Shown here one piece after another: positions 9,932 through 49,436 of a stretch of 64,000 bases of DNA. The position numbers and the translations under genes were made by a program. The DNA is taken from IMG/VR virus record IMGVR_UViG_3300037264_005839; one strand, given 5' to 3'. The notes under the pieces are model-generated. The model made no database searches and was not told the origin of the DNA. It saw only the letters and a list, made by a program, of their open reading frames with translations. The number at the start of each line of letters is the position of its first letter. Within the stretch, counting starts at the first letter, position 1. The stretch is from a virus.

Positions 9932-10639
9932 ATGAGCCGCGTCGAAGAAGACGGGTCGCAGTACCCAGAGGGACCCGTGGATTTGGTGCACGTGGGGCCC
10001 CCAGGAGAGCCTCTCTCCTCGTTCCTGATGCTCTATCACTACGCGGGGGGCATCTTCCCTCTGGGGATGCAACACGAGCGGCATCTGTGGTGGTCCCTTG
10101 AGCCGCGGGCCGTTCTCCAGACGAACCAAGTCAAGGTGAACCGGACACTCCGCAAGGTGATCCGTCGAGGCGACTATGTGGTCCGGGCCGACACGGCCTT
10201 CGATGCCGTCGTGGAACTGTGCCGTCTCACCCGTCAGACGGATGATGGGCCGGGATCGTGGATCACCGACGAGTATGTGCGCGTCTTCAGGACGCTGCAC
10301 AGGCTCGGACACGCCCACAGCATTGAGACTTGGCGGGGGGATCAACTGGCCGGTGGCCTTTTCGGGGTTGCCATGGGCCAAATGTTCTATGGCTGCTCGA
10401 TGTTCCGGCTCCAGCCGAACGCCTCCAAAGTGGCCTTGGTGGCGCTTGCACGGCAGTTGGATGCTTGGGGGTTCCCCCTCGTCGATTGCCAGATCCACAA
10501 TCCTCACTTGGGCCGCATGGGCGCACGCCTCATCCCTCGCATGCGCTTCCACGAGGTCGTGCGGAGCCTTGTACGTGGAAAACGCAGGGTTGGCTCTTGG
10601 GCCGATCAATTCCAAGCGCCGGGCGCCGCATCGTTTTGA
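9932..10639 (+). CDS. aat: leucyl/phenylalanyl-tRNA--protein transferase
   Basis: 235 aa; conserved L/F-transferase blocks WWSLEPRAVL, DTAFDAVVELC, GSWITDEYVRVFRTLHRLGHAHSIETWRGDQLAGGLFGVAMGQMFYGCSMF, DCQIHNPHLGRMGARLIPR. Confidence 0.8.
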   Translation: MSRVEEDGSQYPEGPVDLVHVGPPGEPLSSFLMLYHYAGGIFPLGMQHERHLWWSLEPRAVLQTNQVKVNRTLRKVIRRGDYVVRADTAFDAVVELCRLTRQTDDGPGSWITDEYVRVFRTLHRLGHAHSIETWRGDQLAGGLFGVAMGQMFYGCSMFRLQPNASKVALVALARQLDAWGFPLVDCQIHNPHLGRMGARLIPRMRFHEVVRSLVRGKRRVGSWADQFQAPGAASF

Positions 10640-10871
10640 GTATAAGGGGGGATGCCGGTCGAAAGGACCACCATCCTCCTCACAGGAGAAGAGGCACGTC
10701 GTCCGACACGGCGTGCCTCTCGAGATCGGCCGGAGGGGAAGGAGCTCGACTTGTGGTTCTCGTCGAGAGTTCCTTCCACCTTTGCGCTGTAGGGTTGGGG
10801 CGGGGGGTCGCGAGGCCCTCCGTCCCTGACCCTCTTTTCACGAACACTCTACCCCCACGACGAACAAGACA

Positions 10872-11284: not shown

Positions 11285-11745
11285 TGGAACCACTCATCGA
11301 ACACAAAAACCCACACACCCAGATGCAGAGGATGGAGTCGGCGATCACGACGAATACGCAGAAGGCCAGAGAGCTGCTGCACGCCTTGGAACGGGCTCTG
11401 GTCCGATGCGGCCACGTCCGAGACACGATCTACAACAGCCACGTCGCTAATTTCACGTCCAGGCGCGAACGTGGTGTGGTTCTCTACTGGACGAAAGGCT
11501 GTATCTTGTGGGGCAGCGGACTCCTTCCGAAAGAGAGGGGAGAACCGCCAAGGGAACGCCCCCGGATCAGCGTGGACGACATGGATGCGGGGCAGATCCT
11601 CCGGGTCGCGCAGCACCTGAGTCCGTTCGTGGACCATCTTGAGGGCCACACACGCCACCTGTGCGCAAGGTTGATGGAGGCAGTCAACATCTTGGAGGCC
11701 ATGGTCGAAAAGATCCAAGACGACCCTCATCCTCCCGCTTCGTGA
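11281..11745 (+). CDS. hypothetical protein
   Basis: 154 aa; ATG overlaps upstream stop; this is the real part of the long composite ORF 10330..11745. Confidence 0.5.
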   Translation: MMEPLIEHKNPHTQMQRMESAITTNTQKARELLHALERALVRCGHVRDTIYNSHVANFTSRRERGVVLYWTKGCILWGSGLLPKERGEPPRERPRISVDDMDAGQILRVAQHLSPFVDHLEGHTRHLCARLMEAVNILEAMVEKIQDDPHPPAS

Positions 11746-11783
11746 ATCTCACCGTGAACGCTGCCCGGTAGAGTCGGACACAC

Positions 11784-12170
11784 ATGGCAAACGTCGAGTT
11801 CTACCAAGACGAGAGCGAGAAAGCCGAGTGGCGCTGGCGCGTCACGGCGTCCGACGGGACCCTCATCGGAAAGAGCACCGAGGGCTACTCGCGCAAACAC
11901 AACGCCGAGAACAACCTACGTTCCCTTCCAAACTACACGCGGTCCGTGGACATCAAGACCGCAGCAGCCGTGGGCACCACTCGGCCTCCTGGCGCTCGGC
12001 TCCCCCTTGAGTTCTACACGGACGATGGGGGCAAGTGGCGTTGGCGCGTCACGGCTGGCAACGGCAACATCGTGTACGCGTCGCCTGCAGGCTTCGACAC
12101 GAAGGAAACCGCTGTCCTGAATCTTGAAGGACTACTCTACGCCACCGCTGCTTGGAACAAGAAATCATGA
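11784..12170 (+). CDS. tandem YegP/DUF1508-domain protein
   Basis: two repeats (EFYQDESEKAEWRWRVTASDG.. / EFYTDDGGKWRWRVTAGNG..) with the AEN/ETA signature of DUF1508. Confidence 0.65.
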   Translation: MANVEFYQDESEKAEWRWRVTASDGTLIGKSTEGYSRKHNAENNLRSLPNYTRSVDIKTAAAVGTTRPPGARLPLEFYTDDGGKWRWRVTAGNGNIVYASPAGFDTKETAVLNLEGLLYATAAWNKKS

Positions 12171-13099
12171 AGCTGCACTGCCGAATCTTCCGAGACGACG
12201 TTCTCGCCGAAGAACGCCTGTTCGATCAGGACATCATCAAGATCGGGCGTCTCGAGAGTTCACACATCTCCCTCAAAGACATCGCAAGGATGCACGCGGT
12301 GCTCGAGCGAGATCACCACGGTGTTTGGCGGCTCCTCGATCTCGGCAGTTCGATGGGATCGAAACTCAATGGCGTCTTCGTGGACAAGAATGCCGAGATC
12401 GGCTCGTCGGGGGAACTTCAATTCGGATCTTGGCGCATCCTATTCCTTGCGACAGAGGGGACCGACGTGTTGCCGAGTAATGGGCCGGCCCCTGACCCGC
12501 GGGAGCACCACCGAACGCTGCTGGAGGCGTTGATCAAAGAGATGCACAAGCACAGCAGTCAGACTGCGCGCTCCGCCGAGAAACTGCTTGCCACATGGTC
12601 TCTGTTGGACGAGGAACGGAAGCGAAAGATGCTCCGCACGCTCATTGTCGCCATCAGGAGCGCACGCGTCGACTCTGTACGCGTCGGCCGCCAGATGGTG
12701 GCGAGCATGCTCAAGCTGGGGTCCGAGGGCATCGCCGAGATCTACGAACTCGAGCCGGCACAGGCGCTTGTGCAAGCTCGAGCCGCGTTGATCACAGTGG
12801 CGCAGGCGAAGGCGGCCTTGGCAGCTCTTGAGTCGCTCAAGTTGCGCGAGGTCGTGGACAACGCCCCAACCGAAGAGGACGAGGAGAGGAAGGAGAGCAT
12901 CTCCCATTTCGTCAAGGGCCACGAAGATCTTGAGGAGCTGCTACAGCAGGAGATGGTGATGGGGGTCTCGATTCTCAGCGCATGCCTCAGCAGGGCTGGG
13001 GGTCATGTGCTCACGCATCGAGAGCGTGTCGAACTCCGACACGCCTACGAGAAACTCGAGAAGGCGGCGAACGAAGCTAGCGCTTCCACGTCAGCGTGA
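12167..13099 (+). CDS. FHA-domain protein with helical C-terminal region
   Basis: ATGA overlap; KIGRLESSHISLKD...HAVLERD..WRLLDLGSSMGSKLNG fits the FHA fold signature. Confidence 0.6.
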   Translation: MKLHCRIFRDDVLAEERLFDQDIIKIGRLESSHISLKDIARMHAVLERDHHGVWRLLDLGSSMGSKLNGVFVDKNAEIGSSGELQFGSWRILFLATEGTDVLPSNGPAPDPREHHRTLLEALIKEMHKHSSQTARSAEKLLATWSLLDEERKRKMLRTLIVAIRSARVDSVRVGRQMVASMLKLGSEGIAEIYELEPAQALVQARAALITVAQAKAALAALESLKLREVVDNAPTEEDEERKESISHFVKGHEDLEELLQQEMVMGVSILSACLSRAGGHVLTHRERVELRHAYEKLEKAANEASASTSA

Positions 13100-13736
13100 T
13101 CTGCTTCGACTCAAGTCGAAGACGGATGGTCATGCTGTCGTCGTTGATGTGCACCACGTCGCCCTCCATTTCTCGGTAGAGACCGTCGACGACGAGGACT
13201 CTCTCACCCTCAAGGAAGCGCCCTTGGATCTTCGGGGCCTGCGCGAGCAGGTGCTCGGAAGACCAAATTGCAGGCCCGTTGCCCCGGATGGGTTCGTTGA
13301 GAATGCCAGGTTTGCCTACGAGCATCTGGCACGCCGTCCTGACACGCCGGTGCGTGTCGTCGTTACGCATGTCTGTTTGGAGGTGGTTCACCAAGGCACG
13401 GAGGACCCAGTGCCGAACAGCACCCTGACTCGCGTTCATCCTACGTGCCACCTCGGACTGGCTACTCGTTTCCGCGTAGAGAGCCATCGCCTCCACATCA
13501 CTGTCCCTCGCCCCCAACTCTCGGAGAACTCCTCGAATTTCATCTGGCGAAACTCGAGGGATCTTTTCCATGAACTCAAGCCGCTCGCGGGCGCGGGCGT
13601 ACCGGTAGTTCACCGTTGGTTGCGAGACCCCCAAGATTTTCGCAACCTCGGTCTGGGACTTTCTCAACGATAAATGCAGGCGCAGGATGTCGCGCTCCAT
13701 GGGAGGGAGACGCGCGATGTCTTCGCTGTTCAGCAT
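13077..13736 (-). CDS. transcription regulator: two sigma-70 region-4-like HTH plus C-terminal KOW-like domain
   Basis: ERDILRLHLSLRKSQTEVAKILGVSQPTVNYRYARARERL and a second HTH; C-term GERVLVVDGLYREMEGDVVHINDDSMTIRLRL resembles the NusG KOW; start ATG 13736 lies 11 nt after CGGTAGAGTG. Confidence 0.6.
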   Translation of the reverse strand: MLNSEDIARLPPMERDILRLHLSLRKSQTEVAKILGVSQPTVNYRYARARERLEFMEKIPRVSPDEIRGVLRELGARDSDVEAMALYAETSSQSEVARRMNASQGAVRHWVLRALVNHLQTDMRNDDTHRRVRTACQMLVGKPGILNEPIRGNGPAIWSSEHLLAQAPKIQGRFLEGERVLVVDGLYREMEGDVVHINDDSMTIRLRLESKQITLTWKR

Positions 13737-13797
13737 CGGCCATAGACACTCTACCGAGCGATTTCTTCGTCGAAAATGACGGGGTAGAAGGGGGACC
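13737..13797. promoter_or_regulatory. divergent control region between HTH-KOW regulator and RecA-like ATPase genes
   Basis: contains CGGTAGAGTG (minus orientation), palindrome TTCGTCGAA, and GGGGTAGAAGGGGG (plus orientation). Confidence 0.45.
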
Positions 13798-14469
13798 ATG
13801 CAGATCGGGATCGAGTTTTTCGACAAGCAAGAACCCAAACCAGGGGACCTGTGGTTGGTGGCCAGTGGCCCTTCCATGGGCAAGTCGACCGTGCTCCGCA
13901 ACATCGCTGTAGGGATCGCAGACAACCTTGATGGTGGACGGATCACCTACTGGGATCTCGAGCAGACCTACGCAGCTTGGCGTTCGCGCATCGAGAAGAT
14001 GGGGTGCGACGTGCCGGCCACCCTCACCTACCGCAACGACAGTGCATACCTGGACGGCCACCGCAACGGTGAGATCCTTCCTGCCCTGAACCTCGGAGCG
14101 CCATCAGGTACTGCCGTCGTGGTTATCGATCATTTTGATCTGTTCACGGAGACTCACGATGCTGGACTCAAGACCCTCAAGATCTGGCTCGTGCGTACGG
14201 GAAAATTCGGGATCGTCTCGATGAGTCTTCCGCGCGAGGTGTGGGGCAATCTCAAGGCCGAGGGCGAGATCCACCCAGATTCTCTGCCCGAGCACATGCT
14301 CGACAACGCCGACGCTGTCTTTGCCTGTGGGAAGACTCCTCAGCGAGCCATCGACAACGGCGATGCGGACACGCTTCGCGTCGTTGTCTGCAAGACCCCA
14401 ACCGGACTGCGGGACCCCCACAACTATCACGCGTTCATCTGGAACCACAAGACCGGACGCATCTCGTAA
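13798..14469 (+). CDS. RecA-superfamily P-loop ATPase (DnaB C-terminal/KaiC-like)
   Basis: Walker A GPSMGKST, Walker B VVVIDHFD; preceded by GGGGTAGAAGGGGG. Confidence 0.65.
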   Translation: MQIGIEFFDKQEPKPGDLWLVASGPSMGKSTVLRNIAVGIADNLDGGRITYWDLEQTYAAWRSRIEKMGCDVPATLTYRNDSAYLDGHRNGEILPALNLGAPSGTAVVVIDHFDLFTETHDAGLKTLKIWLVRTGKFGIVSMSLPREVWGNLKAEGEIHPDSLPEHMLDNADAVFACGKTPQRAIDNGDADTLRVVVCKTPTGLRDPHNYHAFIWNHKTGRIS

Positions 14470-14481
14470 AGGAGGTTCCAC

Positions 14482-14898
14482 GTGAGGCGAACACCATGCA
14501 TCGCGTTGTCAATGCTCCTCGCGGGGTGCTTCGGCGAGTTTGATCCCGACCTGAGCGGCTTCCAGCCAGAGGAGGGGGTATTCAGCCCGTGCGAGTCGAG
14601 CCAGGATTGTTCCTCCGACGGCGCGTGCCTCGGGTCCTCGGACATGGCTGTCCAGCTCGACGACACATGGGATGGTGAGGGCGCCTGCACGCGGTGGGCG
14701 ACCGGCAGCGACCCTGACCTTGAGTGCGCGCCCTACCCGGAAGGGTACGCGACCGCCGAGATCGCGTACGGAATGGATGCCAGCGGCGATAGGTTCTGCG
14801 TCCTTGAGTGTGCCGGAGGGCTCAAGTGTCCCGTGGGCATGGACTGCATTCACGTCTATAGTCCTGCCGTCATGTACGAGGCCGAGGTGTGCTTGTGA
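14482..14898 (+). CDS. Cys-rich secreted lipoprotein
   Basis: GTG start 7 nt after AAGGAGG; signal peptide with lipobox LLAGC; 10+ Cys in the mature part. Confidence 0.6.
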   Translation: MRRTPCIALSMLLAGCFGEFDPDLSGFQPEEGVFSPCESSQDCSSDGACLGSSDMAVQLDDTWDGEGACTRWATGSDPDLECAPYPEGYATAEIAYGMDASGDRFCVLECAGGLKCPVGMDCIHVYSPAVMYEAEVCL

Positions 14899-14952: not shown

Positions 14953-15288
14953 GTGTCCCAAAGTGATCGCCAGATCGAGATCCCCATCGAGCTTCTCGGG
15001 CACCAGCTTCGTGAGAAGATCGTCGAGATGCTCGTCCTCGTGGAGCACCTCTCGATCATGGCGACGCCACCAGGTCTCTCGATCTTCGGGAACCTCTGCA
15101 TGCTGGGAGCGCAGTGTTGTCAGCACGTGGCGCTGGGGCGGCGCGAGCAAGCTCTCTTCGCTGCAATCACCATTGGTCGTGCAGTGCCACATGCCTTCCC
15201 GGTCGGGCGTGAGCGGGAAGTTCTTGAGCAGGCTCTGGAGGAGATCATCGCGGTCCTCGAGTGCCCCACGAGCGACGACCTCCACTAG
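14953..15288 (+). CDS. hypothetical protein
   Basis: 111 aa; about 77% GC3; fits exactly between neighbours; the antisense ORF 14509..16572 is judged a shadow. Confidence 0.4.
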   Translation: MSQSDRQIEIPIELLGHQLREKIVEMLVLVEHLSIMATPPGLSIFGNLCMLGAQCCQHVALGRREQALFAAITIGRAVPHAFPVGREREVLEQALEEIIAVLECPTSDDLH

Positions 15289-15318: not shown

Positions 15319-16614
15319 ATGAGTCGGCGACGCGTTGGGACCTTCCAGATGCTGTGGGACTGTTCCTGCGGCACCGGCCCCTTGCTGGGCATCGACCATC
15401 GGCACTGCCCTTCCTGTGGGCGCCCACAGGACCCCCTGCGTCGGTACTTCCCGGATCAGAGGGATGCGGTTCCGGCCCCCGAGTGGGTGGTCGGCAGCGG
15501 TGCTGACCTCTACTGCCCGTACTGCTCCACGGCCAACGTGGCCCAAGCCACCTTCTGTGTGGGTTGTGGGGGACCCATGGACGGCTCCAAGGAGGTCGAG
15601 CGTCGGGAGGCCAACCACGGGACCTCGGCCGAGACGATCCAAGACGCCCTCTCTGAGGCTCGCCAGGAGGCCCAGGAACGGCGCGAGGCCGTGGCAGAGG
15701 CCCAGGCCCCAGACGCGCAGCGGGCCCGGGAGAGGGCTCGTGCAGCCGATCAGGCAACCCCTCGTGAGAGCACGCAGGTGAGGGTGGAATCCCCGCGTAA
15801 ACCCCGCGCTCCGCATCCAAAAATGGCGGCCTTGAGGCGCCACTGGGATCACCTCCGACGACCGGCGATGGTCGGGATGGGGGTGCTCGGTTTGCTGGTG
15901 CTCCTGTGGGCCATCTTCGCGTGGGAGAAGACGATCACCGCCGAGGTTGAGCACCGCTCGTGGGAGCGCTCGCAGGAGATCGAGCGTTTCGTACAACTCT
16001 CTGACTCGTCGTGGTGCGACGACCGACCTGGAGATGCCTACGATGTTGATGAGAGTCGTCGACAACGAGGCACGAGGACAGTCATTGACTGTCGAGACTG
16101 CGACTGCCACACAGAGCAAGTCAAGGTTGGCGAGAACTGTTACGAGGCGAACTGCAGGACCGTCCGCACGGACAATGGCAACGGATCGTTCGACGTGACT
16201 GAAGTGTGCGACCGCAGGTGCGATCCCGTTCACGAAGACCGGCAGATCTGCAAGGACCGGACACACGAAGAGTCCGTCTACGACGAATGGTGCTCGTACA
16301 GGATGGACCGATGGCGACCCCACCGCACGGCCTCGGAAGAGGGCAACTTCTCGCGTGCCCCGGCGTGGCCGGAGCTCGATCTGCGGACGTGCGGCAGGAT
16401 CGAGTTCGGGTGCGAACGACCGGGAGCCAGGAAAGAGAACTACGTCGTCAGTTTCCGCGACGTGCAGGATGACGAGCACTACGAGTGCTCCTACCCGCAG
16501 TCGGCGTGGACTCGATACGAAGAAGGAAGTTTGTGGAAGGCAACGGTGAAGCGTCTCGGTGGCCGCTTCCAATGTGCCTCGCTCGTTGCCATGGCTTCGG
16601 AGACGGAGATCTGA
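15319..16614 (+). CDS. membrane protein with N-terminal zinc ribbons and Cys-rich extracytoplasmic domain
   Basis: CPSCG, CPYCS, CVGCG, then TM segment VGMGVLGLLVLLWAIFAW, then many Cys; TATAAG 7 nt upstream of ATG (leaderless-type). Confidence 0.6.
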   Translation: MSRRRVGTFQMLWDCSCGTGPLLGIDHRHCPSCGRPQDPLRRYFPDQRDAVPAPEWVVGSGADLYCPYCSTANVAQATFCVGCGGPMDGSKEVERREANHGTSAETIQDALSEARQEAQERREAVAEAQAPDAQRARERARAADQATPRESTQVRVESPRKPRAPHPKMAALRRHWDHLRRPAMVGMGVLGLLVLLWAIFAWEKTITAEVEHRSWERSQEIERFVQLSDSSWCDDRPGDAYDVDESRRQRGTRTVIDCRDCDCHTEQVKVGENCYEANCRTVRTDNGNGSFDVTEVCDRRCDPVHEDRQICKDRTHEESVYDEWCSYRMDRWRPHRTASEEGNFSRAPAWPELDLRTCGRIEFGCERPGARKENYVVSFRDVQDDEHYECSYPQSAWTRYEEGSLWKATVKRLGGRFQCASLVAMASETEI

Positions 16615-22140: not shown

Positions 22141-22761
22141 ATGGCTATCGTACTTCCAGGAAAGTTCATCTTCTTGGCAACGCCGTACACGGCGTCGATG
22201 GCGGTTGCACGAGCTCTCAAGACGCTGCCTGGTGTTTTCGTAGCCTATGACAAGCGACACGGGATCGGGCATCACGCGCGTCTTGACCAAATCAAGCAGG
22301 TAGCACAGCAACGTCTGACAGGGACCGAGCAGGTGATCGTGGCTGTACGGAACCCCTACGACGTGTTCGTCTCTTGGTATCTTCGCAACCTGAATCATCT
22401 CCAAGTGCTCCACTTGGTCAAGGTGAAGGGACTCCAGCGCGATCCGAATCTCCGGGAGTTCATCGAACTGTGGGCCGACCTTGACATGCCGCCCTACGTC
22501 TCCAAGGGCCGCATCTTCTACCACGCGGAAGATGGTGGCCATGCGGTGACGCGGAAAATCGTCCGCTACGAGGATCTCGAGAACAGCCTCAACGCCGCGC
22601 TGAGAGCATGCAAGGTGCCTCATGTCAAGGTGGGTCGAGAGAATGAGACACCGGACAAGGATCACTGGTCCTCGTACTACGACGAGGACACCTATGCCTT
22701 CGTGAACGAACGCTTCCGCGATGACTTCGTGAAATTCGGATACCCCTTCCTTTGGAAATGA
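22141..22761 (+). CDS. hypothetical protein (sulfotransferase-like fold?)
   Basis: 206 aa; N-terminal FIFLATPYTAS loop-like segment. Confidence 0.45.
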   Translation: MAIVLPGKFIFLATPYTASMAVARALKTLPGVFVAYDKRHGIGHHARLDQIKQVAQQRLTGTEQVIVAVRNPYDVFVSWYLRNLNHLQVLHLVKVKGLQRDPNLREFIELWADLDMPPYVSKGRIFYHAEDGGHAVTRKIVRYEDLENSLNAALRACKVPHVKVGRENETPDKDHWSSYYDEDTYAFVNERFRDDFVKFGYPFLWK

Positions 22762-23483
22762 GCCGTGGCGTAGAAGGGGGGATGTCCCCCGGACCCCGGC
22801 CCGTTCCCGTCGACCAAGGAGAGATCTCCGCCGGGCCCGTGCTCGACGCCTTGGTCGGCCCGGTTCCCGCAGGGTCGGTTGTCGTCGTGACCGGAACGTC
22901 GGGGACAGGAGTCACCACCTTTCTCCGCCACGTGGCCACGCAAATTGGGCAGCACCGACCGGTGTGGTTTGTGTCCAACAGCACCGAACCACCTCGACCG
23001 ATCGGTCCTCCTGCCGATATCGTGTGGATGCACAAAACGTCTTTGACTGACCTGGCCATGCTGACGAAAAGGTCTTTCGTTGCGACCGTCTGGATCGTCG
23101 ACGACGGCGACCAGATGCTTGCAGGGGACGGCGCCCTGGCCTCGAAGGGATGGGCGTCGTTGCTTCCACGCCTTCAAGCTAATGGTGTGACGCTGTTCCT
23201 CGGGATGAAACAACGTCGAGGACCCGACAGACGCCTGCCCCACGCCATCCCTTTCATGGCGACGCTCGGGCTTGAACTCGACGTCGTCGTGCGCACGCAA
23301 GGAAACGACTCCGTGACGGGAGTCGTCGCGGACGTGAAGCTGTGGAAGTCCAAACTTGGGCCAGCCCAGAGCACCGCAGGCCGCGTCTGGATACGGCCTC
23401 TCCACGAACCATCAGTTCGTCTCGAGGCAGGGCGAGATCCCATGCGTCTCTCCTCCCCAGAGATTGAGGGGTTCCTTGGCTGA
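22758..23483 (+). CDS. RecA-fold P-loop-like protein with degenerate Walker A (no Lys)
   Basis: VVVVTGTSGTGVTTF; Walker-B-like VWIVDDGD; ATGA overlap (alternative ATG 22782 right after GCGTAGAAGGGGGG). Confidence 0.45.
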   Translation: MSRGVEGGMSPGPRPVPVDQGEISAGPVLDALVGPVPAGSVVVVTGTSGTGVTTFLRHVATQIGQHRPVWFVSNSTEPPRPIGPPADIVWMHKTSLTDLAMLTKRSFVATVWIVDDGDQMLAGDGALASKGWASLLPRLQANGVTLFLGMKQRRGPDRRLPHAIPFMATLGLELDVVVRTQGNDSVTGVVADVKLWKSKLGPAQSTAGRVWIRPLHEPSVRLEAGRDPMRLSSPEIEGFLG

Positions 23484-35510: not shown

Positions 35511-35620
35511 AGTTGTACCGCGGAAGCAGTCGCGAGCACGGACGTTACTCCTCCTATCGTTTGGCGGAGGAAGCGAAACAGATCCAACGAGTCATTCGTG
35601 AAACTCTGGTGGGTAGAAGG

Positions 35621-48348: not shown

Positions 48349-49206
48349 CTAGCGCGTCAGGAAATCCACGAGCTCAGGTAACACGACGCCGGCTCGGCCG
48401 CGCAGCCACACCCCTTGCTGCCGTGCAAGGTTAGCGAGGGGGCTGTCCTCAGGGTTGACATCGATGACAATCGCGTCTCGGACCACCGCGTAGTTCGTCA
48501 AGATCTGCGCGATTGGGACGACGGCACTGCACCCCACGGTGAGGACGAGATCGGCCTCCTGTGCGAAGTTGTGGGCCTCCTCGCTCCGGTAGAGCTCCTG
48601 CGAGTACATCTCATCGAACAGGAGCACGTGCGGCCGCATGATGTATCCGCAGTCGGGACAGGTCAGGTCCTCGGGAAACCGGGCGTTCTCTGGAATGTCC
48701 GCGAATTTCGGAACGCCCTGGTTGTTACGTAACCAGCACTCGTCGCTGCATCGCATGCGCTTGTCCCCGTGGAGTTCGATGCACTTCTCGGGTGTGTTGC
48801 CGGCTTCAAGGTGCAGCCCATCGATGTTCTGCGTGACGAGCAGGAACTGACCCTCCGTGGAGTGCATGTAATTCTCGAGGTAGGCGATGGCTAGGTGCGC
48901 CGGGTTGGGCTCCTTACCGCGCATCGTTCCAGCGAATCGGTCAAGGTAGTACTCCCAGAGTTTGTCGATCTGGTGCTCAACCGTGGTACTGCGCAGGAAC
49001 TCAACCGGATTCCAATCGTCGGAATCGTAGATCCCGGTACCGTCGACAGAGCGGAATGTTGGGATACCACTCTCGGCCGAGATGCCAGCTCCGGTGATGA
49101 CGAGCACCTTCCCTTCGTGGACAGCACGACGGGCCCGGCTCCACACGCGGGACGGGATCGAAGCAAGGGCCTCCACTTCTTGTTCGTGCAAGGAAGTTGT
49201 CGTCAT
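48349..49206 (-). CDS. Sir2-family NAD-dependent deacylase (sirtuin) with zinc ribbon
   Basis: GAGISAESGIPTFR, CPDCG...C, catalytic-His region; start ATG 49206 overlaps upstream stop. Confidence 0.8.
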   Translation of the reverse strand: MTTTSLHEQEVEALASIPSRVWSRARRAVHEGKVLVITGAGISAESGIPTFRSVDGTGIYDSDDWNPVEFLRSTTVEHQIDKLWEYYLDRFAGTMRGKEPNPAHLAIAYLENYMHSTEGQFLLVTQNIDGLHLEAGNTPEKCIELHGDKRMRCSDECWLRNNQGVPKFADIPENARFPEDLTCPDCGYIMRPHVLLFDEMYSQELYRSEEAHNFAQEADLVLTVGCSAVVPIAQILTNYAVVRDAIVIDVNPEDSPLANLARQQGVWLRGRAGVVLPELVDFLTR

Positions 49207-49436
49207 GAAATCTCTGGTTCCTTCCACCCGGACTGGCTGCGGATCTCGATAATTTGTTCCCACGAGAGCTTCTCAGGGTTGAGCGCCTCGTCGGGATCTA
49301 TCCACCCCTGACGCCGGGCATACCCCGTCGAGAAGACGGCTCGCGCCATCCCGATGCGCTGGACCTCGGCCGCCTCGTCCTCAGATCCGAGGTGAACGAA
49401 GACGCCCTTGCCGAAGGGGTTTTTGATGGTTGCCAT
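49203..49436 (-). CDS. hypothetical small protein
   Basis: ATG preceded by GGGGGTATAACGCTGGAGGC. Confidence 0.45.
   Translation of the reverse strand: MATIKNPFGKGVFVHLGSEDEAAEVQRIGMARAVFSTGYARRQGWIDPDEALNPEKLSWEQIIEIRSQSGWKEPEIS

What the first reader, a model, noticed from the sequence alone, without database searches (positions are those of the whole stretch)
13077..14469. Divergent pair: HTH-HTH-KOW regulator and RecA-like ATPase sharing a motif-rich 61-bp control region
Seen in sequence: the minus-strand regulator has two sigma-70 region-4-type HTH and a NusG-like KOW (GERVLVVDGLYREMEGDVVHIN). The plus-strand gene encodes a DnaB-C-terminal/KaiC-like ATPase with intact Walker A/B. The shared intergenic region carries both start-associated motifs in opposite orientation and the palindrome TTCGTCGAA. 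Inference: this is an autoregulated transcription switch (KOW suggests RNAP or antiterminator coupling) controlling a replication or recombination ATPase. The second RecA-fold protein with a lysine-less P-loop at 22758-23483 could be its inactive partner. An r4+KOW architecture is unusual.
Basis: partly seen in the sequence, partly recalled or inferred. Interest (0 to 1): 0.55.

Follow-up and report, generated by a model that had tools for sequence, protein, structure and literature searches.

The report
Huge-phage sigma4-KOW regulator and ATPase neighbour
A clade of very large uncultured phages carries a conserved small DNA-binding protein that joins a sigma-factor-type promoter-recognition domain to a NusG-type KOW adaptor domain, always on the opposite strand to its neighbours and with its own promoter-like motif; the helicase-like ATPase next to it is an optional neighbour, not its dedicated target.

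Summary

Homologues occur only in metagenomes, on contigs up to 618 kb (huge phages). The regulator is the lone minus-strand gene in a plus-strand array. In all 19 distinct loci it is preceded by cGGTAnnnTG, a -10-like element 7-13 nt before the ATG. The divergent gene is always preceded by GrGTAnAA.

The ATPase is missing in 6 of 19 loci, while the regulator and both motifs persist. The TTCGTCGAA palindrome is at chance level and not conserved. No TTTTCACGA site lies in the intergenic region. The lysine-less P-loop protein is not linked to the ATPase.

Best reading: an early phage transcription factor that couples promoter DNA binding to a KOW-mediated contact with RNA polymerase, ribosome or Rho. 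It is not a dedicated switch for the ATPase. This is a new domain architecture built from known parts, of moderate interest.

The parts
13077..13736 (-). Regulator gene, 219 aa: sigma-4-type HTH + second HTH + KOW barrel
   Evidence: ORF and homologue lengths; Pfam; AF2 pLDDT 92.7, pTM 0.81
13578..13709 (-). HTH1, sigma-70 region 4 (residues 10-53, LPPMERD...SQPTVNYRYARARERL)
13392..13466 (-). HTH2 (residues 91-115, SSQSEVARRMNASQGAVRHWVLRAL), region-4-like but below threshold
   Evidence: Second r4_2 stretch; alone 1.8e-4, 21.5 bits, below 25.7; Q93 S94 E95 V96 R98 S103 Q104 R108 invariant
13080..13265 (-). C-terminal KOW/SH3-like six-stranded barrel (residues about 158-219)
13737..13797 (.). 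61-bp divergent control region; length kept at 58-63 bp wherever the ATPase is present
13748..13755 (-). GGTAGAGT: -10-like TAnnnT element with a GG prefix, 11 nt before the regulator ATG; the likely regulator promoter, giving a near-leaderless mRNA
   Evidence: cGGTAnnnTG present in all 19 distinct loci with only the three middle bases varying; 5 copies against 0.70 expected, 4 of 5 just before ORF starts
13782..13789 (+). GGGTAGAA: general start-associated motif G[GAC]GTAnAA, 8 nt before the ATPase ATG
   Evidence: G(G/A)GTAnAA conserved in 15 of the 16 aligned loci whatever gene follows (L017 has GGTAGGAG instead); 29 copies against 13.5 expected in the window; no conserved upstream element
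13766..13774 (.). TTCGTCGAA palindrome: present but at chance level and not conserved as a palindrome
   Evidence: 2 copies against 0.97 expected; alignment of 16 loci keeps only C...G.CG
13798..14469 (+). 223-aa protein made only of a DnaB C-terminal (RecA-fold) domain; an optional neighbour
   Evidence: Family profile against PDB DnaB CTD 2.8e-4, T7 gp4 2e-3; phrog_19 3.3e-8; absent in 6 of 19 loci
13861..13890 (+). Walker A ASGPSMGKST
   Evidence: K29 replaced by R (P0095) and T (P0097) in 2 of 22 homologues
14116..14136 (+). Walker B VVVIDHF (D111 invariant)
12167..13099 (+). FHA-domain gene converging on the regulator and overlapping its 3' end by 23 bp, with no terminator between
   Evidence: Pfam FHA 7.2e-9; convergent overlap conserved; no terminator-like site at the junction
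11740..11774 (+). Composite promoter-like element TCGTGAAT-N18-GGTAGAGT upstream of the DUF1508-FHA genes that run towards the regulator
   Evidence: TCGTGAAAA-N17-20-GGTAGA(G/A)T upstream of an ATGGCAA start (the DUF1508 start in the window) in L008, L015, L016, L020 and L022; the same composite occurs in L009 and L010 without that start

Best explanation
The minus-strand gene encodes a phage transcription factor specific to a clade of huge phages. It is not a sigma factor, because it has no sigma-2 domain. It probably binds DNA through a region-4-type HTH helped by a second HTH, and uses a NusG-type KOW barrel as a protein-protein adaptor towards the transcription/translation machinery (RNA polymerase, ribosomal protein S10 or Rho). 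It is the only gene on its strand. It has its own host-type -10 element (cGGTAnnnTG) 7-13 nt before the ATG, so it is probably made early, from a nearly leaderless mRNA, independently of the surrounding plus-strand array. Its promoter lies back to back with a second motif class (GrGTAnAA) that restarts the rightward genes. Its 3' end overlaps the incoming FHA gene, so its expression and rightward transcription probably interfere with each other. The DnaB-CTD-like ATPase is simply the first rightward gene in most lineages; it is an accessory gene, not the regulator's obligate partner. Shown: the domain architecture, the conservation, the synteny, the motifs and the loss of the ATPase. Inferred: DNA binding, the KOW partner, the timing, promoter function and interference.
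For: Architecture.

Conservation: 34 invariant columns, concentrated in the two recognition helices, across 38 homologues of 44-83% identity.

Huge-phage origin: contigs of 618 kb (IMG/VR) and 235-311 kb, and a tblastn hit in the 485-kb uncultured phage LR745208.1.

Lone minus-strand gene in a plus-strand array.

The cGGTAnnnTG motif keeps T, A and T fixed while the three middle bases vary (TAGAGT, TAAAGT, TAGGGT, TAAGGT, TAGCGT, TAAGAT, TACAGT, TACAAT) in all 19 loci, which is the pattern of a sigma-70-family -10 element. In the 20-kb loci L001 and L005 this motif occurs before only two genes, one of them the regulator.

The regulator and both motifs persist where the ATPase (6 loci) or FHA (L024) is lost.

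Distant paralogues sit in a transcription-type neighbourhood of other huge phages. A phage NusG homologue (NGN 25.5 bits, above the gathering score, plus a KOW) lies immediately upstream of the sigma4-HTH gene in L030. In L029 the order is a KOW protein, then a sigma4-HTH-KOW-like protein, then a further sigma4-HTH protein.
Confidence: 0.5

Rival explanations
1. One reading: an autoregulated switch in which the regulator binds the shared 61-bp region (palindrome and motifs) and specifically controls a replication or recombination ATPase.
For: Divergent arrangement with an intergenic length of 58-63 bp conserved in 13 loci. The two promoter-like motifs are close enough (about 26 bp apart) for one bound protein to affect both. 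The window has a TCGTcGAAAA sequence 7 nt upstream of GTAGAA, resembling the TCGTGAAA-N9-GTAGAA arrangement at 35590-35618.
Against: The ATPase is absent in 6 of 19 loci while the regulator and both motifs are retained. The palindrome is at chance level and not conserved. The neighbouring genes are RNA-repair and NAD-type genes, not replication genes. Walker A lysine is lost in 2 of 22 ATPase homologues.
Confidence: 0.2
2. An RNA-polymerase-binding co-factor rather than a DNA-binding factor. The region-4-like domain docks on the beta-flap in place of, or beside, host sigma region 4 (as T4 gp33 does), and the KOW tethers another partner, redirecting host polymerase to phage promoters.
For: The fold is closest to true sigma region 4, not to LuxR/GerE (GerE only 5.6e-3). 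There is no sigma-2, so it cannot be a sigma factor itself. The phage has many -10-only-type start motifs with no conserved upstream element. Paralogues are adjacent to a phage NusG homologue.
Against: The recognition-helix residues (SQPTVNYR; SQGAVRHW) are the most conserved part of the protein, as expected for DNA contact. There are two HTH units in tandem. Beta-flap contact cannot be tested with these tools.
Confidence: 0.17
3. A replication module: an origin-binding HTH initiator paired with a minimal DnaB/RepA-like hexameric helicase, with the origin in or near the intergenic region.
For: The ATPase aligns with the DnaB CTD and T7 gp4 helicase motifs H1 to H3. Initiator-helicase gene pairs are common in phages and plasmids (general knowledge). 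Distant paralogues lie near Toprim and clamp-loader genes.
Against: The ATPase is dispensable in 6 lineages. No iterons or AT-rich repeats are apparent in the 61 bp when read by eye (repeat finder was not run). GC skew shows no local switch. The helicase lacks the DnaB N-terminal domain and linker. The KOW and sigma-4 domains point to transcription.
Confidence: 0.08
4. A small-terminase-like DNA-recognition protein (N-terminal HTH, helical core, C-terminal beta-barrel).
Against: The hits cover only the generic HTH. The barrel is a self-contained KOW. There are no packaging genes nearby.
Confidence: 0.02

Closest known systems
Sigma-70 family region 4 (ECF and group-3 sigma factors: SigF, SigD, SigH, SigE, FliA)
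   Different: There is no sigma-2 or sigma-3 domain, because the protein starts at region 4. It is followed by a second HTH and a KOW, so it cannot act as a sigma factor.
NusG / RfaH / Spt5 KOW domain
   Same: The C-terminal barrel matches NusG, Spt5 and RfaH KOW by profile (best E 1.8e-3, including the PK-rich linker) and by fold. The pattern G-E-x-V-x-V-x-D-G-x-Y-x-x-h-x-G-x-V parallels the NusG KOW.
   Different: There is no NGN domain, so there is no NusG-type docking on the polymerase clamp. Pfam KOW is below threshold. The partner of the KOW is unknown.
T4 late and middle transcription co-factors (gp33 as a sigma-4 mimic; MotA/AsiA sigma appropriation)
   Same: Small phage proteins that replace or re-use the sigma region 4 function to redirect host polymerase. 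The window also has abundant -10-only-type start motifs. This is a functional analogy drawn from general knowledge and PMC6755090 / PMC2988021, which were listed but not read in detail.
   Different: No sequence or fold relationship was tested or found. gp33 lacks DNA binding, and MotA has a different fold.
T4 MotB
   Same: An early phage DNA-binding protein predicted to carry a KOW motif joined to a nucleic-acid-binding domain (PMC7827196).
   Different: MotB has an N-terminal KOW plus an OB fold and no HTH. It binds DNA non-specifically and is not homologous.
DnaB C-terminal domain / T7 gp4 helicase domain (and, from memory, the CTD-only helicase RepA of RSF1010)
   Same: The ATPase aligns from the TGxxxLD/FFD segment through Walker A, the SLEM-type glutamate, Walker B and the QLSR-type motif.
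   Different: It is only 223 aa, with no N-terminal domain or linker helix. It is below the Pfam DnaB_C threshold (19.3 against 27 bits). It is lost in some lineages, and the Walker lysine is lost in 2 of 22 homologues. No comparison with RepA was run.

Membership tests
Sigma-70 family sigma factor | Region 4 HTH (-35 recognition, beta-flap binding) | tested here: met
Sigma-70 family sigma factor | Region 2 (core binding, -10 recognition and melting) | tested here: not met
   No r2 hit in Pfam or NCBIfam. Region 4 begins at residue 7, leaving no room for region 2
NusG/Spt5 family | NGN domain that binds the RNA polymerase clamp | tested here: not met
   No PF02357 hit; the N-terminal 140 residues are all helical HTH domains
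NusG/Spt5 family | KOW motif / SH3-like barrel | tested here: inconclusive
LuxR/GerE-type response-regulator effector HTH | GerE-type four-helix HTH above threshold | tested here: not met
DnaB-family replicative helicase | RecA-like C-terminal domain with motifs H1, H1a, H2 and H3 | tested here: inconclusive
   Family profile against PDB DnaB 2.8e-4 with the motifs aligned; phrog_19 3.3e-8; but Pfam DnaB_C 19.3 bits, below 27
DnaB-family replicative helicase | N-terminal domain and linker helix (primase contact, hexamer collar) | tested here: not met
   The protein begins at the segment that aligns with DnaB residue about 189-199; it is 223 aa in total
DnaB-family replicative helicase | Hexamer formation and helicase activity | not testable with these tools
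KaiC / RadA (Sms) family | A family-specific profile match | tested here: not met
   TIGR00416 sms E 0.19; RadA in PDB E 0.1; no KaiC hit for the ATPase
Known anti-phage defence systems (PADLOC) | A match to any system component | tested here: not met
   Only generic HTH or P-loop hits (mad1 3.1e-9 over the HTH; mad8 4.4e-3)

The most novel reading that the evidence does not exclude
A single polypeptide carries out 'sigma-4 replacement plus coupling'. The region-4 domain takes the place of host sigma region 4 at phage promoters that have no canonical -35 element. Such promoters would include the -10-only GrGTAnAA class, or those with a TTTTCACGA box at the -35 position. The NusG-type KOW would simultaneously recruit ribosomal protein S10 (the ribosome) or Rho to the initiating polymerase. 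This would link initiation directly to translation of the leaderless-type mRNAs that these start motifs imply.
Probability: 0.1. Interest if true: 0.8.

Novelty: new variant of a known kind. Interest (0 to 1): 0.45.

Why it matters
Huge phages carry many transcription and translation genes whose roles are unknown. A conserved protein that fuses a promoter-recognition module (sigma region 4) to the adaptor domain NusG uses to reach the ribosome and Rho would be a new way of wiring initiation to downstream events. It gives a concrete, small (219 aa) and well-folded target for experiments. The result also corrects a tempting over-reading: gene adjacency to a helicase-like ATPase does not make a functional pair here.

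Tried and rejected
- **Palindrome as operator:** rejected. It is at chance frequency and not conserved.
- **TTTTCACGA in the control region:** none at up to 1 mismatch. There is only an indel variant, TTTTCgACGA, and it is not conserved in related loci.
- **Canonical sigma-70 promoter or intrinsic terminator in 12900-14700:** no promoter, and one chance-level terminator-like site inside the regulator gene.
- **Internal duplication of HTH1 and HTH2:** no detectable similarity.
- **The lysine-less P-loop protein as a paralogue or partner of the ATPase:** no similarity and no synteny.
- **A conserved -35-like element upstream of GrGTAnAA sites:** none.
- **Rfam and tRNA scans of the window:** nothing.
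- **Cultured or annotated phage relatives:** only one unannotated 485-kb metagenomic phage for the regulator, and a weak primase hit for the ATPase.
- **Defence-system models:** nothing specific.
- **Literature search for a sigma region 4 plus KOW combination or huge-phage sigma/NusG:** no description of this architecture.
- **NusG-like gene in the window:** none by tblastn with the huge-phage NusG homologues.

Full report
**1. What is at the coordinates**

The minus-strand ORF 13077-13946 is open up to a GTG. All 84 database homologues are about 220 aa and align from the ATG at 13736, so the gene is 13077-13736 and encodes 219 aa. The plus-strand gene is 13798-14469 and encodes 223 aa. The spacer 13737-13797 is 61 bp.

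**2. The regulator**

- **HTH2.** Scanned alone, the second helical unit still prefers region 4, but below threshold (1.8e-4, 21.5 bits). The two units show no detectable similarity to each other.

The first domain is secure, the KOW is well supported, and calling the second HTH 'r4' is only suggestive. The protein has no sigma-2 region, so it is not a sigma factor. It has no NGN domain, so it is not a NusG.

**3. The ATPase**

Single-sequence hits are weak: DnaB_C 8.2e-4, AAA_25, and phrog_19 'DnaB-like replicative helicase' at 3.3e-8. A profile of 22 family members hits DnaB helicases (4nmn 2.8e-4; 2r6a) and the T7 gp4 helicase domain (2e-3). The alignment covers Walker A, the SLEM-type glutamate (E55, invariant), Walker B (D111, invariant) and an 'SxQLPRE' segment that matches the DnaB 'SQLSR' motif.

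The protein starts exactly where the DnaB C-terminal domain starts, so it lacks the N-terminal domain and the linker. The Walker lysine is replaced by R in P0095 and by T in P0097.

**4. Where it comes from**

Both proteins have homologues only in metagenomes, and these share contigs. The contigs reach 618 kb (IMG/VR) and 311 and 235 kb. The regulator's N-terminal half also hits the 485-kb uncultured phage LR745208.1. The neighbouring genes are RtcB, a Leu/Phe-tRNA-protein transferase, DUF1508, FHA, Thg1, metallophosphatases, CinA, NUDIX, NADAR, 2OG-Fe(II) oxygenase and endonuclease V. This is the accessory region of a huge phage, not a replication module.

**5. Synteny**

The regulator is the only gene on its strand within about 20 kb of co-directional genes. 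It converges on the FHA gene, and the two overlap by 17-38 bp (23 bp in the window).

I compared 19 distinct loci.
- In 13 of them the DnaB-like ATPase is the divergent neighbour, with a spacer of 58-63 bp.
- In 6 (L013/14, L017, L022, L023, L024, L025) the ATPase gene is absent. There the regulator faces orthologues of window genes 14953-15288 or 15349-16614, or an unrelated small gene.
- In L024 the FHA gene is also missing, and DUF1508 is the convergent neighbour.

The regulator is thus the fixed element, and the ATPase and FHA genes are optional.

**6. The control region**

An alignment of 16 loci shows two conserved blocks separated by variable sequence.

- **Next to the regulator.** On its coding strand the sequence reads TCGGTAGAGTG-n-CTAT, then 3-5 nt, then ATG. 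Across all 19 loci the core is cGGTAnnnTG, with T, A and T fixed and the three middle bases free (TAGAGT, TAAAGT, TAGGGT, TAAGGT, TAGCGT, TAAGAT, TACAGT, TACAAT). It lies 7-13 nt before the ATG. This is the conservation pattern of a sigma-70-family -10 hexamer with G at -14, placed so that the mRNA would have a leader of 0-6 nt. That reading is an inference; the consensus -35/-10 scan finds nothing there.
- **In the window as a whole.** GGTAGAGT occurs 5 times against 0.70 expected. Four of the five lie 5-11 nt before the start of an ORF of at least 112 aa, against a 15% background. In the 20-kb loci L001 and L005, GGTAnnnT precedes only the regulator and the Leu/Phe-transferase gene.
- **Next to the rightward gene.** The conserved block is G(G/A)GTAnAA, 4-8 nt before the start codon, whichever gene follows. 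It is present in 15 of the 16 aligned loci; L017 has GGTAGGAG instead. The same class, G[GAC]GTAnAA, occurs 29 times in the window against 13.5 expected, and about 20 of these lie 2-20 nt before ORF starts. It has no conserved upstream element. I cannot decide whether it is a -10-only promoter for a phage-specific factor, an RBS-associated element, or both. Its rarity in L001 and L005 favours a promoter.

The TTCGTCGAA palindrome occurs at chance frequency, and only 'C...G.CG' is retained across loci. No TTTTCACGA site lies in the spacer.

**7. The wider family**

An exhaustive profile search finds 711 cluster representatives, 273 of them below 1e-10. Only about ten cover the KOW as well. These include AT-rich, distant members (P0156, P0165, P0180, P0216) that keep a G-D-x-V-x-I-x-E-G-A-Y-type tail. 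Most are about 200-aa proteins with the two HTH units and a 45-residue N-terminal extension. All come from metagenomes, and several lie on contigs of 109-358 kb.

Two of these were looked at in context.
- In L030, a phage NusG homologue (NGN 25.5 bits, above the gathering score, plus a KOW) lies immediately upstream of the sigma4-HTH gene.
- In L029, the order is a 166-aa KOW protein, then the sigma4-HTH-KOW-like P0165, then another sigma4-HTH protein, next to Toprim and clamp-loader genes.

This places the family among huge-phage transcription genes and suggests that the KOW was recruited from a phage NusG-like protein (inference). No full-length structural match exists in PDB or BFVD.

**8. 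Mechanism**

- **Shown:** the architecture, conservation, strand isolation, motif conservation, and the optional status of the ATPase.
- **Inferred (most likely, about 0.5):** an early phage transcription factor that binds DNA through the region-4-type HTH, helped by HTH2, and uses the KOW as an adaptor to the transcription/translation machinery. It would be expressed from its own host-type, near-leaderless promoter. It sits where its transcription and the rightward array (driven from the composite promoter-like element at 11740-11774) must collide, because the 3' ends overlap with no terminator between them.

**9. Novelty and score**

The individual domains are well known, and the gene is annotated generically in JGI as 'transcriptional regulator / sigma24 family'. 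The combination of sigma region 4, a second HTH and a NusG-type KOW, without sigma-2 and without NGN, has no described or structural counterpart that I could find. It is conserved across a clade of huge phages. I rate it a new variant of a known kind, with interest 0.45. It is worth an experiment but is not a new class of system. The specific claim of an ATPase switch should be dropped.

Noticed in passing
window 4179, 10835, 15291, 18998, 51550 (+); 37200, 46454, 63205 (-): TTTTCACGA occurs 8 times exactly against 0.49 expected. All eight are co-oriented with the local genes, and seven lie about 15-50 nt upstream of a start codon. The spacing to the G[GAC]GTAnAA motif varies (3, 9 and 26 nt), and reversed copies (TCGTGAAA) lie upstream of the starts at 22782 and 35630. 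It looks like a transcription-factor box; which protein binds it is unknown.
   Followed up: partly
window 11740-11774 (+); L008 4681, L009 2739, L010 5480, L015 2658, L016 2464, L020 5365, L022 5350: A composite element TCGTGAAAA-N17-20-GGTAGA(G/A)T. In L008, L015, L016, L020 and L022 it lies upstream of an ATGGCAA start like the DUF1508 (YegP-like) gene start in the window. The box sits at a fixed distance where a -35 element would be, but 3-5 bp too far for a standard sigma-70 promoter.
   Followed up: partly
window, about 20 sites, e.g. 1722, 15303, 22768, 25361, 30228, 35611, 37684, 48325 (+); 45385, 46444, 49454, 50246, 51226 (-): G[GAC]GTAnAA followed 2-15 nt later (mostly 5-10) by a start codon. 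This is a very regular start-associated motif with no upstream partner. It suggests leaderless or very short-leader mRNAs from a -10-only type promoter, or an RBS-linked signal.
   Followed up: partly
window 10640-10871: An unusually long (233 bp) intergenic region. It contains GAGTATAA at 10638, and TTTTCACGA directly abutting the reverse complement of GGTAGAGT (10835-10853). The composite GGTAGrGTGTTCkTGAAAA is conserved in L010 at 6450. There is no Rfam hit. It could be a minus-strand promoter or a small RNA.
   Followed up: partly
window 22782-23483 (+): A P-loop protein whose Walker A lysine is replaced by valine (GTSGTGVTT, 22893-22919). It has only sub-threshold AAA_16 and KaiC-like hits, and no homologue in the flanks of related loci. 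Its start carries the same GCGTAGAAGGGGGG-ATG context as the ATPase.
   Followed up: partly
P0095 and P0097 (ATPase homologues), alignment A2: The Walker A lysine is replaced by arginine (GPAMGRST) or threonine (GPAMGTST) in two otherwise well-conserved family members, one of them on a 311-kb contig. ATP hydrolysis may therefore not be required in all lineages.
   Followed up: no
window 14482-14898 (+): The gene immediately after the ATPase starts MRRTPCIALSMLLAGCFGEF, a lipoprotein-type signal peptide with an LAGC lipobox, followed by a Cys-rich 138-aa product. This is unexpected next to a helicase-like gene.
   Followed up: no
L030 5452-5991; L029 5495-5995: Huge phages encode their own NusG homologues (NGN above the Pfam threshold plus a KOW in L030; KOW only detected in L029), directly upstream of sigma4-HTH paralogues of the regulator.
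   Followed up: partly
window 3452-23736 and 48349-49263: A dense set of RNA-repair, tRNA and NAD-related genes: RtcB, Leu/Phe-tRNA-protein transferase, Thg1, two metallophosphatases, CinA, NUDIX, 2OG-Fe(II) oxygenase and endonuclease V, plus a SIR2-family protein on the minus strand. This is typical counter-defence or host-takeover cargo of huge phages.
   Followed up: no
window 56953-63177 (-): A 2074-aa ORF with no Pfam match at 1e-3, preceded by a TTTTCACGA box at 63205-63213. The neighbouring 1013-aa ORF has only a Laminin_G_3 domain.
   Followed up: no
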